A stretch of DNA of 64,000 bases, taken from contig JAYFMW010000017.1 in the NCBI GenBank assembly GCA_042408215.1, positions 1 to 64,000 of the forward strand, written 5' to 3'. The position numbers were made by a program. Of this stretch, positions 1 to 9,000 are shown one piece after another (within the stretch, counting starts at the first letter, position 1; every line of letters starts with the position of its first letter). The DNA is from Microcoleus sp. (lineage in GTDB: Bacteria; Cyanobacteriota; Cyanobacteriia; Cyanobacteriales; Microcoleaceae).

Positions 1-3000
1 GCGGGATATGAAGTGGTGGAAGTTTTCAGGGAGACTGCCAGCGGTGCCAAATCCGATCGCCCGGAGCGCCAAAAAATTATGGCGGCAGCGCAGGCACGAA
101 AAGTTTCGGCGGTGCTGGTGACTGAGGCTAGTCGATGGAGCCGCAGCACGATCGACCTGCTGGGAACTTTGCAAAGCTTGAATGCTTGGGGCGTGTCGCT
201 GGTTACGCTGTCTGGAATAGGGTTAGATTTGAACACGCCGCAGGGCAAGTTGATGGCGGCGGTTATTTCGGCGATCGCTGAATTCGAGCGGGATTTAATC
301 CGGCAGCGGGTGAAGAGCGGGATGGCGGCGGCGAAGGCGAAGGGTCAGAAGTTTGGGCGGCCGCGAGTGTCGGAAAGTGCGATCGCCCTTGTTCACCAGT
401 TGAGGGCGCAAGGCAAAAGTTATTCGCAAATTGCTGAAATTTCTGGAATCAGTCGGACTAAGGTTTTTGAGTTGTGCCGCGCCATGAATGAATCACAGCT
501 ACGACCTGTACCGGCGACATTCCAGCGAGTAGGGCCGATCGCACTTCTTTAAGTCTCGCTTGTGCTATCTCAGAATCGATGTTGCCACCGGGAATGTGAA
601 CGTGCCGCATTCGGGAGCCGTCGCGATAAGAGAATCGGAAATATTCCCCGCTGCGGGCCGTGCCACGAGGCCGGTAAGTAGATATTGCTCGTGATACAGA
701 ATCATCCTCAGCAACCTCGACAATGTATTCTGTATCAGCAACCTCGACAGTGTATTCTGTATCAGCAACCTCGACAGTGTATTCTGTATCAGCAACCTCG
801 ACAGTGTATTCTGTATCAGCAACCTCGACAGTGTATTCTGTATCAGCAACCTCGACAGTGTATTCTGTATCAGCAACCTCGACAGTGTATTCTGTATCAG
901 CAACCTCGACAGTGTATTCTGTATCAGCAACCTCGACAGTGTATTCTGTATCAGCAACCTCGACAGTGTATTCTGTATCAGCAACCTCGACAGTGTATTC
1001 TGTATCAGCAACCTCGACAGTGTATTCTGTATCAGCAACCTCGACAGTGTATTCTGTATCAGCAACCTCGACAGTGTATTCTGTATCAGCAACCTCGACA
1101 GTGTATTCTGTATCAGCAAATGTAGAGGCTGGTGATACAGAATCAATTTCCGGCGGCGCGGGTGCGAGCTTGACTTCATCGGGATAGAGAAAATCCCACT
1201 GGTTGATGTGAGGGTTCCAAAATCGAAGGCGGCCGTCGATCGGATGAACTGCGTTCACTTTGAAAATTTCGCCGCGCTTCACCCAAGCAGCGATCGCCGG
1301 TTTCCTTCGCAGCTTCACCCAGTCGCCAGCTTTGTAAAGGCTGCCTACTTCGGCGGTCGCGGTGTCAAAAAGTGAAAGTTGAGCATTGACCATATCGGCA
1401 CTAACTCCTTTGTCAATCGATTTTAGATTTTAGATTTTAGATTTTAGATTTACTTCATCGACGTATTCTTTCAGATCGGGATATTTCATGATTGTTTGTC
1501 TAGCATTGGTAATTGGTAATTGGTAAGTGCTGATCTCTCCCGGCTGTCACTCCACTTTTTGGCAGGTGTCGCCAGTTTTGCAACTAATGCCTTAATGCAC
1601 TGCTACACATAAATGGGCTTCCATAGAAAGTCATTTATCTGTAGCACTCATTTGTTGACGGCTTCTCTAAACTGCTTACCGGCCGAGAATGCCGGAACTA
1701 CCGCAGCGGGGATATCCATCTTCTCCCCGGTCTTAGGGTTGCGGCCTTCACGGGCCTTGCGCTCTTTCGCTTCAAAGGAGCCGAAACCTACCAGCGTTAC
1801 TTTCTCACCGTCGGCAACCGCTTGGGTGATGGAATTTATCAGAGCATCCAACAGAGCATTTGCAGCTTTCTTGGTGGTCTCAGCTTTGGTGGCGGCTAGT
1901 TCTACAAGTTCAGATTTGTTCATAAGTGCGATCGGTTTCGGTAATTAGTCATTAGTCATTAGTAACGCAAAACCAGCCCCCGTAAGGAGTGCTGGCTTTT
2001 TGGTTCAGTGGCGGTTTCCTCCTGTCGTTGTTAGATCTCTTGCTGCTGTTGCTGCACTTTGTTCCGCTGCATGTTTTGCTGATGCTTTCTGCGTTCAACC
2101 TCTGTTAATCTCCGTTGGAGCTCAACGATGAACTCCATTTGCACCTGCTTGCGATATCTCAACGTGGCTCAAGGATTCTCCCCAACTGCTTTTCTCGTCG
2201 ATAATGTCTCTCCGGGCTTGATATTTCCACTGCTAGCGTCTGAGCAACTCGTCCGAGCTTCTCTCCCAGCCGCTCCGCTTCTCTCGAGTGCCTCGCTCTC
2301 CGTCCGTCTAGTCGGACTTTGTCATCTTCCCCGTACTTCTGTTTCCTGACTTTGCATAGCTTTCGAGTCATAACTTCTCTCTCTAAATAGATGAACGTCT
2401 ATGAGATCTTGACAGTTATCTCATTAAGACGTCTATGATGACTTCAATGTCTGTAATGTAAAAGACTGCACTGCATACCCCAAACATTGATGGGTGGGCA
2501 ACTCCCACCCTTTCCCTAACCTATGTACACCCTAGAAAGCCTTCAACAGAAGAATCTCAAGGAACTCAAGGAAATCAGTCGGCAGCTCAACGTGCTCCCA
2601 TTGGGCGATCGACGGTGCCGCCAAAACTGGATTAATGTCCTCATCGGCACTCAGCCCCCCCTGCTGCAACTGCTGGAAGTTCCCCCCGGTGTCGAACCGG
2701 TTGCTGAGGCGAAACGCAAGCTAGAAGTTCAATCCCAGGAGCCGATCGAAGTTCAAGCCCAGGAGCCGATCGAAGTCGATCAAGTCCAGGAGCCGCCGAT
2801 CGAGTCCAAGTTTGGCCGCATCATTTATCCCAAACCGGCCGTTAAGCCGATCACACAAAATGCAGAAACTAGACCCCAACTCGACAGAACAGAAAGTGCT
2901 GATGTACATAACTGGCGCTCTCATCCCGCCGACTCAGTTCGAGATAGCAGCAGCGCTAAAGCTGAAGCACTGGGAAGCAAGGAAGGCGATCGGGTATTGG

Positions 3001-6000: not shown

Positions 6001-9000
6001 CGGGAGCTTGAAGAGTTGGCAGAAACTCTCGACAACTGTCTGAATACTTGCGAGCTAAACCTTAACTCGATCCGAATAATCCCCGACGACAGCCCACAAC
6101 CCGCAACTGTCAGCTTGCGAGATTTGCCAATTGAACAAAAACAACTTATTTATTCTTGTTCAAGAACCAATTCGATTTTGCTGAATTTGCTGAGTGAACT
6201 TCTTAATCAACCTTGCGAACAAATAGCCCGCGACATAGCAGAACAAGTCGCTTTGCGTCAAGAACCAGTAGATACAAGCGAAATAGAAAATTTCATCGAC
6301 AACGTAATGCTGCCGCTCGTTCAACAAACCGAAAAAAATCCTTCCGCTACAGGTCATTACGTTTTTAAACGAATCGACTAAGCGCAAAAAAAAAGCGGTT
6401 GAATCCCGACTTCAACCGCTTAATTCCAAGCTGTCTCGACTATTTTTTACACAATGGCATCTATTAATTTACCATGCACCAACCTCAAAATCGACAGATT
6501 GCTGATTTAGTGCAATCCGCCAAAGAACAATATGGCGATTTTAGCGACGCAAAAAAACGAGAAATCTTTGAAATCATCAAAGAAGCCAAATCGCGCGGCT
6601 TGTTGCGAAAGCAGCCTCACGACAAATGTTTGAGCGATTATGTCAACGCCGCCAACCACCTACTGAGAAGCTATCCAACTGAAGAATTCACAGCAGCGTT
6701 GAATCGAAATCTTGATTACGTATATGTGTACGTTGCCCTTGTCGGCACCAACTCCATCCTCACAACCGCCTGACGAGGGCCGCCTATGGAATCAGCGGCT
6801 GAAACTCCCCTTATTAAGGGGGGTAGCGGATCGATTCCAACCCGAACCGCCACAGCATCGCGGCCGACTTAAGGCTTTCATAATGAAACAAGCTCTATAG
6901 GGCTTTTAGCTTTTCATAAGCTTGGTCGGGTTTGCGCGCTGTAGCCCTGCGTGCTTTAAGAGTGAATTAGGCTCATTTTATTGCGGCCTTTGGGTGATTC
7001 ATAAGCACTTTGTTCCAGGGAGTAAACCTCACCCTATAAACATGAAAATACTAGGCGTTGATATTAGCAAAGCCTCCATTTCTGCGTGCCTGCTTTTAGA
7101 AAAAGCCAACGCAAACGCCGATGCGCGCGATACTTTGTACGAAACCAAATTTCATAAATTTTATGCAGATGCCGCTGGAATTTGCGGACTGCTCGATCTG
7201 ATTGGTGATGGCGAGGCGATCGCAATAATGGAGCCGACCGGCATCAATTATCAGAAATTGTGGGGAACTCAACTTGCCAGAGCCGGCGTTGAAGTGCGGC
7301 TTGTGGGACACGCAGAATTAAGATCTTTTCGCCACCACCACCTTGGTTTGCCTGATAAAGACGACGACGCCGATGCTCTAGCACTGGCGCTGTACGGCTG
7401 GGAATATCTCGATTTGCCTCGCAGGTTTTTGCAGATTCGAGAAGGAGCGATCGTAAAAATCCGCGAGTTCGCTTTGCGGTTGGCACACCTGAACAGGGTG
7501 CAAAGTCCCATAATTAACCGGGCGAGGCAAGATTTAGCTTGGCAATTCCCCGAAATTGCGCTGATCCGCTCAGTGCGTTACGGCGAAAGAGTACCTTTGC
7601 TGTGGGGTTGGCTTTCGGGCGAAGGACCAAGCAAAAAATACGATCGCCTTTATGCCGAATCGATCGGCTTAGGCCTCACCGAATCTGTACGCCAGCACGC
7701 CGCCAGACTTTGCAGCTTGCAGCGCGAAGAAATGGTAATTGAACAAGAACTTTTTAAATTGCTTGCCGCTCCGCAGTTTGCCCGCTACCGAAAAGTTTTC
7801 GTCCGGTTTGGATTTGGACAACGAGTCGAAGCGCTGCTGCTAAGTCAAATTTACCCGCTGCAAAATTATCTTGCAGCCGACGGCACGCCAGAAGTAAAAA
7901 TCGCCAAAGGTCGCAAATCCGGCAAGCCAACCAAGCGATACCTTTCTCTGCGGCGGTTCATGAAAGCTTTAGGGTGCGCGCCCTCGCAGGAAAGTAGCGG
8001 TGATTTGCAAAAGTCTAAAGTTATGGGAGGTTCCGCGCTATGTCGGAAAGCGCTTTGGCAATGGATTTTTACCAGAATCGAGCCCAAGAATCGCCGGCTA
8101 TCAAACGACATAGGCTGCTACCTTGGAGAAATTTTAGATTCTGAAAAAGCCAGCGGTCGGCCGGTGAAGCTTGCCCGATCGCGCGTCGCGGCCAAAGCCG
8201 TAAAAATGCTCTTTAAAGAGCTCGTCAAGGCGCTCGCTCAGGATAAAAAAATGTTAGAGTGAAAATCTTTGCGTTGCCTTGCTATTTTTTGATGATGTTT
8301 AGCAAGGCGTTTAACAGCTTTGGGTCTGCGATTACTGCCTTTCTTTTTGCGAGAAACAGCCTTATTTCGCAGCTTTTTATCAATCTCAGCTTTTCTAGCA
8401 AACTGAGGGATAGATACGGTTTCACCATCACTGGTAATCAAGAAATCCTTCAGTCCCATATCAATACCGACAACATTATCAAGATTGACATCAGGACTAA
8501 TTGTAGGAACCGTTACATCTTGCAATGTCAGCACCACATACCAGCCATCAGCGTTCTTGACGATCTGAGCAGTTTTAATTTTGAATCCATCGGGAATAGG
8601 GCGGTGCAAGATAATCTTCACATCGCCAATCTTAGATAGAGTTGATGCGATTACCTTTGATGCAGTCTTGCGACATCTGAGTATAGGTAAAACTGTGATA
8701 TCTACCACGACCTTTAAATCTTGGCTTACCAGAGCGTTTACCTGCTTTGTCAGCACTGATATAACGGTCAAAAGCTTTCTTGACTCTAGCAATGCAATCC
8801 TGAAGCACTTGAGAATGAATGTTTTTGTACTCAGGAAATAGCTTTTTGGTATTGAGTAGATCTCGCTTTTGCCAGTAATAATCAGGCTGTTCAACTATGG
8901 GAGCAATGCTACATAATACGAGAGAGCATGAATTAACAGGACTACGAGTAGACTCATACCAGTTAAATCTCTCTGCCAGCCTATAGTTGTACTGCATACG

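What a model noticed while it worked through the whole genome (the two positions that open the first line are those of the whole stretch)
1..7000. Self-targeting type I-D spacers against a resident mobile element
Three spacers of the cas-less 61-repeat CRISPR array at C12:69103-73532 match this genome itself: two are perfect 30/30 matches with a GTT flank in small islands of unknown genes at the start of C17 and the end of C11. Boldest reading: a resident (integrated or episomal) mobile element survives beside an apparently complete type I-D interference module because it carries an anti-CRISPR against type I-D among its small unknown genes. New would be a bacterial anti-I-D protein family and a natural self-targeting case in a filamentous cyanobacterium.
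Evidence so far: Call 65: 319 spacers of 7 arrays blasted on the genome; only C12 spacers 31 (27 of 29), 32 (30/30, C11:89934-89963) and 43 (30/30, C17:6605-6634) hit outside arrays. Call 67: both perfect protospacers are preceded by GTT, the PAM type I recall for type I-D (GTH); the C12 repeat (..CCCTATCAGGGATTGAAAC) is close to that of the I-D array at C26:92290-96707 beside cas3', cas10d, csc2, csc1, cas6, cas4, cas1, cas2 (g05058-g05069). Call 66: the targets lie in g03392 (99 aa), g03388 (124 aa) and g03017 (50 aa), within runs of unknown genes beside a resolvase (g03383), HU (g03385) and an IS110 transposase; both runs stop at contig ends.
(Added by a program. Inside this text positions count along the whole contig: contig position 1 is position 1 of the stretch shown here. 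"Call 12" and the like, gene names such as g00115 and contig names such as C1 are that model's own, and its searches are not shown. The text may have been shortened before it was handed on; [...] marks where a part breaks off. The agent that wrote the report below was given it as the finding of a first reader that could run no searches.)

Follow-up and report, generated by a model that had tools for sequence, protein, structure and literature searches.

The report
Self-targeting spacers beside a broken CRISPR
A filamentous cyanobacterium carries four CRISPR spacers aimed at a 17-kb mobile element integrated in its own chromosome; as assembled, its only matching CRISPR machinery (type I-D) is broken in three genes, so no anti-CRISPR protein is needed to explain survival.

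Summary
Four spacers of the cas-less C12 array, not three, hit this genome: 34/34, 33/34, 34/37 and 30/35. All four have a 5' GTT, the type I-D PAM. The target is one integrated element of about 17 kb, split over the end of C11 and the start of C17, with about 5.5 kb missing from the assembly. It ends at window position 8263, not 7000. A bridge-RNA-guided IS110-family recombinase moves it: the RNA's variable loop matches the insertion site in 3 of 3 copies tested.

The "complete" I-D module is not complete in this assembly. The cas10d 3' end (the cas11d part), cas6 and cas1 carry frame-breaking indels. These are absent from 5 relatives (3 for cas6 and cas1) and from contigs of 4 metagenome runs. 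Two small repeat elements sit inside the operon.

Best reading (0.45): interference is dead and self-targeting is tolerated. Rivals: a mixed-strain consensus assembly (0.25); an inhibitor or silencing (0.15). No Acr candidate emerged. Three related elements, but not this one, carry a mini-array with I-D-like repeats, a possible RNA anti-CRISPR. The raw reads of this genome would decide between the readings.

The parts
1..552 (+). Serine recombinase (resolvase/invertase type) of the element. Its first ~30 aa are cut off by the contig start.
   Evidence: Pfam Resolvase 1.2e-31, profile positions 31-144 of 145; PHROG DNA invertase 8.3e-40. Homologues of 194-195 aa sit in the same place in relatives.
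458..1393 (-). 311-aa repeat protein (54-bp tandem repeat at 708-1119), conserved in the element family.
   Evidence: Self-matches; homologues of 198-222 aa in relatives.
1648..1923 (-). HU-type DNA-binding protein of the element.
   Evidence: Pfam Bac_DNA_binding 6.5e-32; syntenic in 6 of 6 related copies.
2523..4436 (+). 637-aa protein of unknown function. Its ends are conserved and its middle is variable across the family.
   Evidence: No Pfam, PHROG or PADLOC hit; Atlas gave nothing usable; relatives are 399-552 aa.
4603..4977 (+). 124-aa unknown gene holding the sp32 protospacer (4832-4868 on the - strand; PAM GTT lies on the - strand at 4869-4871).
   Evidence: 34/37 match with mismatches at spacer positions 4, 15 and 20.
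5036..5858 (+). Gene for a 266-280-aa protein with a weak NikA-like RHH hit. Here it is broken into 115-aa and 149-aa ORFs by three frame changes within ~100 nt.
   Evidence: Three-frame reading against 5 intact relatives; one TAG inside the match; weak NikA-like hits.
5875..6381 (+). 168-aa unknown gene of the element.
   Evidence: Syntenic homologues in relatives; no family hit.
6474..6773 (+). 99-aa unknown gene holding the perfect sp44 protospacer (6605-6638, +) with PAM GTT at 6602-6604.
   Evidence: 34/34. The identical protein is also on record from Logan and ENA contigs.
6771..7041 (+). Bridge-RNA-like non-coding region. Target-binding loop: 6879-6889 CATAATGAAAC and 6906-6917 TTAGCTTTTCAT around an inner hairpin. 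Donor-binding segments: 6958-6966 AAGAGTGAA and 6990-7003 TTGGGTGATTCATA.
   Evidence: Conserved in 5 copies at 76% mean column identity. Consensus fold has 54 pairs, 8 with compensatory changes. The variable loop matches each copy's own insertion site in 3 of 3 copies tested.
7042..8263 (+). IS110-family DEDD recombinase (ATG at 7042, stop at 8260-8262) and the right end of the element (...GTTAGAGTGAA ends at 8263).
   Evidence: Pfam DEDD_Tnp_IS110 hit at 5.7e-6 here (26.6 bits, below the 29-bit cutoff) and 1.7e-10 (41.3 bits, above the cutoff) for the G057 homologue. The gene is terminal in 5 of 6 related copies.
8264..9147 (-). Remnant of an IS605-family tnpB gene. This is the insertion target of the element, not part of it.
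   Evidence: Pfam OrfB_IS605 and HTH_OrfB_IS605 on two fragments. An uninterrupted paralogue at C3:135932-135960 reads ...TATAATGAA|AATCTTTGCG....

Best explanation
The four spacers are genuine type I-D spacers taken from this family of mobile elements. A copy of the element now sits integrated in the same chromosome. The cell survives because type I-D interference no longer works.

Shown in the sequence as assembled:
- The only I-D locus lacks a continuous 3' end of cas10d. This is the part that also encodes the small subunit Cas11d.
- cas6, the crRNA-processing nuclease, is frame-shifted.
- cas1 is in pieces.
- Two small dispersed repeat elements are inserted inside the operon.

Inferred: without Cas6, Cas11d and the Cas10d C-terminus, no functional Cascade forms, so the two interference-grade protospacers (34/34 and 33/34, both with GTT) are not attacked.

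Not resolved: whether autoimmunity selected for the loss, or the loss let the element in.
For: Targeting is real: 4 C12 spacers match, and 4 of 4 have GTT. GTN/GTH is the published I-D PAM (PMC10212523, passages read).

There is one I-D locus only. tblastn with 12 Cas pieces finds no second I-D effector; the only other Cas-like matches are a cas1/cas2 pair in the C6 type III module, a 36-aa Cas6-like piece on C17 and a weak helicase match. C12 and C10 are cas-less, and the other arrays sit by type III modules with different repeats.

cas10d: the open frame is 960 aa, against 1143, 1125, 1146, 1123 and 1125 aa in the 5 closest relatives. The region C26:86250-86560 needs at least 4 frame changes and holds an in-frame stop. 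NCBIfam matches profile positions 2-806 and 916-946 on separate ORFs. Cas11d is translated from within the cas10d 3' end and is needed for the functional complex (bioRxiv 10.1101/2020.04.18.045682, passages).

cas6 is 211 + 78 aa, against 277-280 aa in relatives. cas1 is split by four indels.

The same indels are absent from contigs of 4 of 4 metagenome runs holding 97-99% identical DNA.

The damage is local, not genome-wide:
- No G000-specific indels in cas3', cas10d-N, csc2 or csc1 (6.9 kb).
- None in gene bodies over ~15 kb of core genes compared with relatives.
- At most 2-3 possible split genes among 45 ORFs in window 9.9-64 kb.
- The two type III loci read as continuous ORFs.
- The indels are not in homopolymers.

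Two insertions specific to this genome, upstream of cas10d and between csc1 and cas6, belong to dispersed repeat families with 22 and 46 other copies.

Relatives G057 and G055 have intact-length cas10d and carry element DNA. None of the spacers examined (0 of 243 and 0 of 83) matches any element locus.
Against: The lesions come as tight clusters of small indels plus substitutions. There are three patches in the cas locus and a similar patch in an element gene. The 6.9 kb of other cas genes is clean.

Uniform neutral decay would not give this pattern. Local consensus errors could.

Some indels compensate each other's frame: -1/+1 and +1/+2 in cas1.

The truncated Cas10d and Cas6 fragments are on record only from this assembly, so there is no independent confirmation. 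No run laid showed the G000 version.

The arrays have near-perfect repeats, so any loss is recent.

A survey of more than 100,000 genomes found deterioration of cas loci to be rare among self-targeting genomes (PMC7708048, abstract).

The raw reads of this genome were not available.
Confidence: 0.45

Rival explanations
1. Mixed population or consensus artefact. The assembly merges more than one genotype. The spacers and the element live in different cells, or the element is in only part of the population. The frame breaks in cas genes and in the element gene are consensus errors at polymorphic accessory loci. On this reading there is no paradox.
For: The element is the place where two contigs break, and about 5.5 kb of its middle is missing from all 30 contigs.

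Contig C23 (32 kb) is 78% covered by collinear matches to C28:247665-284412 at a mean of 99.5% identity. This is a haplotig-like duplicate.

Contamination is 2.55% (table).

The lesions are clustered patches of substitutions plus indels, in accessory DNA only.
Against: Both junctions of the element are assembled into long chromosomal contigs: C11 beside xfp and the 805-kb C17.

No empty-site version of the left flank exists in the assembly.

The two type III loci show no such patches.

C23/C28 could instead be a true segmental duplication.
Confidence: 0.25
2. The I-D system is intact (the frame breaks are errors) but is held off. The cause would be an unknown anti-CRISPR protein of the element, an RNA decoy, or transcriptional silencing of the operon, for example by the WYL regulator or the locus's own mini-array.
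For: Two protospacers are interference-grade. Most element genes have no known family.

Three related elements (G057, G038, G007) carry a conserved mini-array with I-D-like repeats and a terminator hairpin. MGE-borne repeat mimics and crRNA-like RNAs are known anti-CRISPRs (PMC10651486 and bioRxiv 10.1101/2024.10.29.618823, passages).

The host locus has a WYL regulator and its own mini-array.
Against: This genome's own element copy lacks the mini-array.

The mini-array occurs in only 4 of 60 genus genomes. Only 1 of those 4 (G057) has a cas10d match.

No target for its spacer was found.

There is no Acr or Aca-like hit. No inhibition was tested. The sequence as it stands does not need an inhibitor.
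Confidence: 0.15
3. The orphan C12 array is not transcribed or not loaded, because its repeat differs at 4 of 37 positions from the C26 repeat. Its spacers are then silent relics.
For: C12 has no cas genes within 8 kb on either side. Its repeats differ from those of C26.
Against: The leader is near-identical to that of the cas-linked C26 array. The hairpin and the 8-nt 3' handle are identical. Five C12 repeats carry the C26-type variant. The 4 of 4 GTT PAMs show that I-D adaptation fed this array.
Confidence: 0.05

Closest known systems
Self-targeting spacers against prophages or integrated elements (Nobrega et al. 2020, PMC7708048, abstract read). Stern et al. 2010, on self-targeting with degraded CRISPR, is recalled and was not seen here.
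   Same: Spacers with a consensus PAM hit an integrated mobile element of the same genome. Several neighbouring spacers hit the same element, as expected from primed acquisition (sp32/33 and sp44/45).
   Different: Here the cas locus itself looks damaged, which that survey found to be rare. The target is not a recognisable prophage but a bridge-RNA-mobilised element of unknown genes.
AcrID1 of Sulfolobus virus SIRV3, the only type I-D anti-CRISPR named in the 2023 review (PMC10212523, passages read).
   Different: No homologue or Acr-like locus was found in the element. Nothing here was tested for inhibition.
IS110-family bridge-RNA recombinases (IS621; PMC11208160, listing and start of abstract) and large cargo-carrying IS110 elements (bioRxiv 10.64898/2026.08.14.744561, abstract read).
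   Same: A DEDD recombinase sits next to a structured non-coding RNA. One loop of that RNA matches the target and another matches the element's own ends. Donor and target share the core TGAA. The cargo is far larger than a 1.5-kb IS.
   Different: About 15.5 kb of cargo lies between the left end and the bridge RNA. The cargo is a conserved, syntenic set of lineage-specific genes with a tail-fibre-like motif, HU and a serine recombinase. It is not the plasmid or resistance DNA that dominates the large elements in that preprint. Activity was not tested here.
RNA anti-CRISPRs (Racr, PMC10651486) and phage crRNA-like regulators (bioRxiv 10.1101/2024.10.29.618823); passages read.
   Same: A mobile element carries repeat-like units that copy the host's CRISPR repeat hairpin and handle. 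They flank a conserved spacer-like stretch.
   Different: It is seen only in 3 fetched related elements, with the motif on a fourth genome's contig, and not in this genome's copy. The period is 55 nt instead of about 72. No target was found. Neither paper's main text treats type I-D (0 and 1 occurrences, the latter in a reference).

Membership tests
Interference-proficient self-targeting spacer | Full or near-full spacer-protospacer identity, including the seed | tested here: met
   sp44 is 34/34. sp33 is 33/34 with the mismatch at the last base. sp32 and sp45 have mismatches at positions 4 and 8 and are probably escaped.
Interference-proficient self-targeting spacer | Correct PAM for the system | tested here: met
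   GTT in 4 of 4. The I-D PAM GTN/GTH is from PMC10212523.
Interference-proficient self-targeting spacer | Spacer and target are in the same cell | not testable with these tools
   They are in the same assembly (C12, C11, C17). Only contigs of other samples could be laid. A haplotig-like contig exists.
Complete type I-D interference module | Full-length cas10d including the cas11d-coding 3' end | tested here: not met
   957 aa against 1120-1143 aa in 5 relatives. The 3' end is in three frames with a stop.
Complete type I-D interference module | Intact cas6 | tested here: not met
   211 + 78 aa against 277-280 aa. There are two 1-nt insertions, at C26:89466 and 89473.
Complete type I-D interference module | Intact cas3', csc2 (cas7d) and csc1 (cas5d) | tested here: met
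   762, 337 and 235 aa with full profile matches and no specific indels.
Anti-CRISPR locus (protein) | Homology to a known Acr, or a small gene next to an HTH Aca gene | tested here: not met
   No such hit in Pfam, PHROGs or PADLOC on the element's genes. These libraries hold few Acr models, so this is weak evidence.
Anti-CRISPR locus (protein) | Inhibition of the cognate system | not testable with these tools
   Needs an interference assay.
IS110-family bridge-RNA element | DEDD (RuvC-like) recombinase with a Transposase_20 C-terminal domain | tested here: met
   PF01548 at 41.3 bits (cutoff 29) in the G057 homologue. The window protein scores 26.6 bits, below the cutoff. PF02371 is weak.
IS110-family bridge-RNA element | Adjacent ncRNA whose target loop matches the insertion site and changes with it | tested here: met
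   5' side of the loop against the target's left half:
- G000: ATAATGAAA against ATAATGAA|A.
- G057: AGATTGAAAC against AGATTGAA|AC.
- G060: AGGGTGAAC against AGGGTGAA|C.

The 3' side is complementary to the right flank: 12 of 12 nt in G057, about 7 of 8 in G000 and 5 of 6 in G060 (read by eye).
IS110-family bridge-RNA element | Donor loop matches the element's ends; donor and target share a core | tested here: met
   AAGAGTGAA matches the right end ...TAGAGTGAA. GGGTGATTCA is roughly the reverse complement of TGAA+TCCCC at the left end. The shared core is TGAA.
IS110-family bridge-RNA element | Whole unit inserted, shown against an empty site | tested here: met
   The G057 copy (17.16 kb) can be set against the empty site in G000 at C30:~300600. 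The G000 copy can be set against an uninterrupted tnpB paralogue at C3:135932-135960. In that case the left flank shares only 13 nt.
RNA anti-CRISPR / crRNA-like mini-array on an MGE | Repeat-like units copying the host repeat, carried by the element | tested here: not met
   Absent from this genome's copy. Present in the elements of G057, G038 and G007: 17-19 of 19 nt identical to the repeat core.

The most novel reading that the evidence does not exclude
The frame breaks in the I-D locus are consensus errors and the system is alive. A lineage-specific 17-kb element, moved by a reprogrammable bridge RNA, persists under perfect, PAM-flanked I-D spacers because the element family carries counter-defence. 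In some members this is an RNA mini-array that copies the I-D repeat. In this copy it is a still unknown factor among its orphan genes. That would be the first bacterial anti-I-D function. It would also be a natural arms race between a CRISPR system and a bridge-recombinase element.
Probability: 0.12. Interest if true: 0.8.

Novelty: new member of a known kind. Interest (0 to 1): 0.5.

Why it matters
Self-targeting spacers are used as a signpost for anti-CRISPRs. This case shows why the cas locus must first be read base by base against relatives: a module that has all its gene names can still be dead.

The target itself is of interest. It is a conserved, cargo-rich element that appears to be integrated by a bridge-RNA-guided IS110-type recombinase. 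The guide loops differ between copies in step with their insertion sites, which is natural evidence of reprogramming. It is also a regular target of type I-D adaptation in this genus.

Three related elements carry a mini-array with the host's I-D repeat. This is a concrete RNA-level anti-I-D or Cascade-hijacking candidate that can be tested in a cyanobacterium with a working I-D system.

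Tried and rejected
- **Invertible-segment idea** (a serine invertase next to tail-fibre-like genes explaining the contig break): no flanking inverted repeats in two full copies. Dropped.
- **Rfam on window 1-10000:** 0 matches at E <= 1.
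- **Nature of the element:**
  - PHROGs and Pfam gave only a short tail-fibre motif and weak tube and baseplate hits.
  - The Atlas gave nothing usable for two proteins.
  - IMG/VR gave no relative with one protein and one weak hit (31% over 63 aa) with an alignment.
  - No match in PLSDB plasmids or INPHARED phages.
  - So I do not call it a prophage or a plasmid.
- **Target of the element mini-array spacer:** none with <= 4 mismatches in 21 nt in this genome or the fetched loci. None with <= 3 mismatches in five genomes apart from the mini-arrays themselves. No seed+PAM site in two I-D loci. The 6 weak sites in L030 have 2-3 mismatches each and none is convincing.
- **Target of the host-locus mini-array:** nothing convincing.
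- **Sequencing runs:** only Logan contigs of metagenomes were on offer, so depth, population share of the element and the gap could not be measured. Parts of the cas locus without cover say nothing.
- **Cas10d versus element across the 18 same-genus genomes:** the element is present in 3 of 11 with cas10d and in 4 of 7 without. This is a weak trend, and related genomes are not independent.
- **Earlier notes of the scan:** none found.
- **Empty-site haplotig of the left flank:** none in the assembly.

Full report
**Setting.** The window is the first 64 kb of contig C17 of a 7.36-Mb, 30-contig genome with 45% G+C. I rebuilt the CRISPR arrays from the contigs.

- C12:69105-73531 has 61 repeats.
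- C26:92291-96707 has 61 repeats.
- C10:106323-112157 has 81 repeats and lies on the minus strand.
- These three share the repeat half CCCTATCAGGGATTGAAAC and near-identical leaders.
- Two arrays on C6 and one on C30 have other repeats.
- C12 and C10 have only housekeeping neighbours. The C6 and C30 arrays sit beside type III modules with Cmr2/Cmr4-like genes, Csx18 and SAVED.

**The observation.** I blasted 307 spacers on the genome. Five hits outside arrays had 22 or more identities, and four of them are C12 spacers.

| Spacer | Match | Place | Mismatches |
|---|---|---|---|
| sp44 | 34/34 | window 6605-6638 (+) | none |
| sp33 | 33/34 | C11:89963-89930 (-) | last base only |
| sp32 | 34/37 | window 4868-4832 (-) | positions 4, 15, 20 |
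| sp45 (new) | 30/35 | C11:88400-88366 (-) | positions 8, 10, 15, 20, 21 |

All four carry GTT directly 5' of the protospacer. The fifth hit (C10 sp78, 29/35, no GTT) looks like chance.

GTN (Synechocystis) and GTH (Microcystis) are the published I-D PAMs. In I-D, every sixth base from position 1 is flipped out (PMC10212523, passages). None of the mismatches falls on a flipped position. sp32 and sp45 are therefore probably escaped, while sp33 and sp44 are interference-grade.

The four spacers lie in two adjacent pairs around a duplicated pair (sp34/35 = sp42/43). This is the pattern expected from primed acquisition.

Two more spacers hit related elements in other genomes. C12 sp51 matches 29/34 with GTT. 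C26 sp42 matches 31/36 inside the part of the element that is missing here. This element family is therefore a habitual target of the I-D adaptation machinery.

**What the target is.** The two "islands" are one element. In six related copies from five genomes of the same genus the genes are contiguous and collinear over 17-19 kb. Their order is:

1. a 142-144-aa gene with a weak Tlde1/YkuD hit;
2. small membrane proteins;
3. several unknown genes;
4. a block with a tail-fibre-like motif;
5. a serine recombinase;
6. a repeat protein;
7. HU;
8. a 400-640-aa unknown;
9. four small genes;
10. an IS110-family recombinase at the very end.

Twenty-two of 60 genus genomes have strong DNA matches (best E <= 1e-60). 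A marker protein of the element is nearly confined to the genus: 6 of 301 class-level genomes have it, and 4 of those 6 are in the genus. It has no relatives in IMG/VR (apart from one weak hit), PLSDB or INPHARED.

In this genome the C11 end cuts a 165-aa gene after residue 50, and the C17 start cuts the serine recombinase. The roughly 5.5 kb between them is on no contig. A second, divergent copy lies at C3:~444-457 kb.

**Ends and mobility.** The G057 copy (17.16 kb) interrupts a site that is empty in this genome at C30:~300600. Its left junction is CTAGATTGAA|TCCCC and its right junction is TAGAGTGAA|ACCAAAAAC.

Here the left end is at C11:86631 (TATAATGAA|TCCCCAGC). The right end is at window 8263 (GTTAGAGTGAA|AATCTTTGCG), which includes the recombinase stop codon. 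An uninterrupted paralogue of the hit tnpB gene at C3:135932-135960 reads TTTATAATGAA|AATCTTTGCGTTGCC. The right flank matches this paralogue for more than 180 nt and the left flank for only 13 nt, so DNA to the left was later lost or rearranged.

The 270 nt upstream of the recombinase are conserved in five copies. They fold into stems that enclose large internal loops.

- The 5' side of one loop equals the left half of each copy's own target: G000 ATAATGAAA, G057 AGATTGAAAC, G060 AGGGTGAAC.
- The 3' side of that loop is complementary to the right flank: 12 of 12 nt in G057, and partial in the other two.
- A second, conserved pair of segments matches the element's own right and left ends.

This is the layout of an IS110 bridge RNA with target-binding and donor-binding loops. 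The loop terms come from the listing of PMC13396178 and the abstract of PMC11208160. The strand rules are recalled. Large cargo-bearing IS110 elements were described in a 2026 preprint (10.64898/2026.08.14.744561, abstract read). This is a new member of that kind with an unusual, conserved cargo.

**The I-D locus.** There is one I-D locus only, at C26:80154-92039. I compared it with relatives at 92% DNA identity.

- cas3' (762 aa), a conserved 162-aa ORF, csc2, csc1, cas4 and cas2 are intact.
- Cas10d ends at 957 aa, against 1120-1143 aa in five relatives.
- Beyond that point the reading passes through three frames and an in-frame stop within C26:86250-86560.
- This stretch encodes the Cas10d C-terminus and Cas11d. 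Cas11d is made by internal translation and is needed for the functional complex.
- cas6 has two 1-nt insertions 7 nt apart.
- cas1 has -1, +1, +1 and +2 indels.
- Two insertions of dispersed small repeats, with 22 and 46 other copies, lie upstream of cas10d and between csc1 and cas6.

Contigs of 4 of 4 metagenome runs, 97-99% identical to this locus, all lack the cas6 and cas1 indels.

**Are the lesions real?**

For:
- They are not in homopolymers.
- The other 6.9 kb of cas genes carries no specific indel.
- About 15 kb of core genes compared with relatives shows none in gene bodies.
- The window's 45 further ORFs include at most 2-3 possible splits.
- The type III loci read through.

Against:
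- The lesions form tight patches of substitutions plus small, partly compensating indels.
- A similar patch breaks an element gene, with three frame changes in ~100 nt.
- Uniform decay would not look like this.
- The truncated proteins are on record from this assembly alone.
- Contig C23 looks like a haplotig of C28, so the sample may not be clonal.

I put "real" a little above even.

**Relatives as a control.** G057 and G055 have cas10d of intact length (1134 and 1122 aa) and carry element DNA. None of the 243 G057 spacers (of about 343 repeats) or the 83 G055 spacers that I could extract matches any element locus. Coexistence with an intact system therefore goes without self-targeting in these two. 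This fits ordinary immunity logic and argues against a general need for an Acr.

**A lead on counter-defence.** The elements of G057, G038 and G007 carry a mini-array about 80 nt inside the left end. Two units copy the I-D repeat hairpin and handle (CCCTGTCAGGGATTGAAAA and CCCTATCAGGGATTGATAAC). They lie 55 nt apart around a conserved spacer-like stretch and are followed by a strong hairpin and a T-run. The fold z-score is -5.2.

- The motif occurs in 4 of 60 genus genomes.
- This genome's copy lacks it.
- I found no target for it.
- Known parallels are Racr repeat mimics and phage crRNA-like regulators.

The host I-D locus also holds its own mini-array, antisense between cas3' and the 162-aa ORF, in this genome and in G003. 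A WYL regulator lies upstream of the locus.

**Verdict.** The Acr interpretation is not supported by anything found here. The plainest reading is tolerated self-targeting beside a damaged I-D system (0.45). The rivals are a mixed-strain consensus (0.25) and inhibition or silencing (0.15). Self-targeting of integrated elements is common: it is seen in a fifth of CRISPR-bearing bacteria (PMC7708048, abstract). The added value lies in the nature of the target and in the mini-array lead.

Noticed in passing
window 6771-8263: A structured non-coding region plus an IS110-family recombinase form the right end of the 17-kb element. The RNA's variable loop matches each copy's own insertion site (3 of 3 tested) and a conserved loop matches the element ends. 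This is a bridge-RNA-guided element with large cargo.
   Followed up: yes
L030:19340-19480 (-), L031:1629-1760 (+), L032:19850-20000 (-): The related elements of G057, G038 and G007 carry a mini-array. Two I-D-like repeat units lie 55 nt apart around a conserved spacer-like sequence, followed by a terminator-like hairpin. It is absent from this genome's copy. The motif occurs in 4 of 60 genus genomes, and no target was found.
   Followed up: partly
L001:8440-8560 (= C26:82440-82560, minus strand); L018:15727-15820: The host I-D locus holds its own degenerate mini-array (CCCTATTAGGGATTGAAAAC, 56 nt, CCCTATTAGGGCTTGA). It is antisense, between cas3' and a conserved 162-aa ORF of unknown function. 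It resembles CreR/CreA-type crRNA-like regulators. No target was found.
   Followed up: partly
G000 C3:~444000-457300: A second, divergent copy of the element family (29-54% aa identity) lies in the same genome. No spacer of the six arrays hits it.
   Followed up: partly
L001:9205-9370 and L001:14615-14860 (C26:83205-83370, 88615-88860): Two short dispersed repeats (22 and 46 other copies in the genome) are inserted inside the I-D operon. They are absent from the relatives G002 and G003.
   Followed up: yes
G000 C23 against C28:247665-284412: The 32-kb contig C23 is 78% covered by collinear matches to C28 at a mean of 99.5% identity, with gaps. It is either a haplotig (a second genotype in the sample) or a segmental duplication.
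   Followed up: partly
G038, G041, G060 (whole genomes): These genomes hold 156, 211 and 32 repeats of the I-D-type core but gave no match to Cas10d with this query. All three carry the element. Orphan arrays or another partner system may be common in the genus.
   Followed up: no
C12:71525-72257: Spacers 34 and 35 recur as spacers 42 and 43. This internal duplication is flanked on both sides by the element-targeting spacer pairs.
   Followed up: no
window 708-1119: A 54-bp tandem repeat (about 7-8 units, more than 99% identical) lies inside the 311-aa element gene. Relatives have shorter versions of 198-222 aa.
   Followed up: no
window 1-9000: Thirteen public runs hold half or more of the 31-mers of this stretch, and 19 runs from 12 studies (sediment, wastewater and other metagenomes) hold at least part of it. 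Near-identical elements and hosts therefore seem widespread. Only contigs were available.
   Followed up: no
window 11259-12470 and 8238-9147: One intact TnpB gene (403 aa, with a Cas12f-like TNB domain) lies 3 kb from the tnpB remnant that the element inserted into.
   Followed up: no
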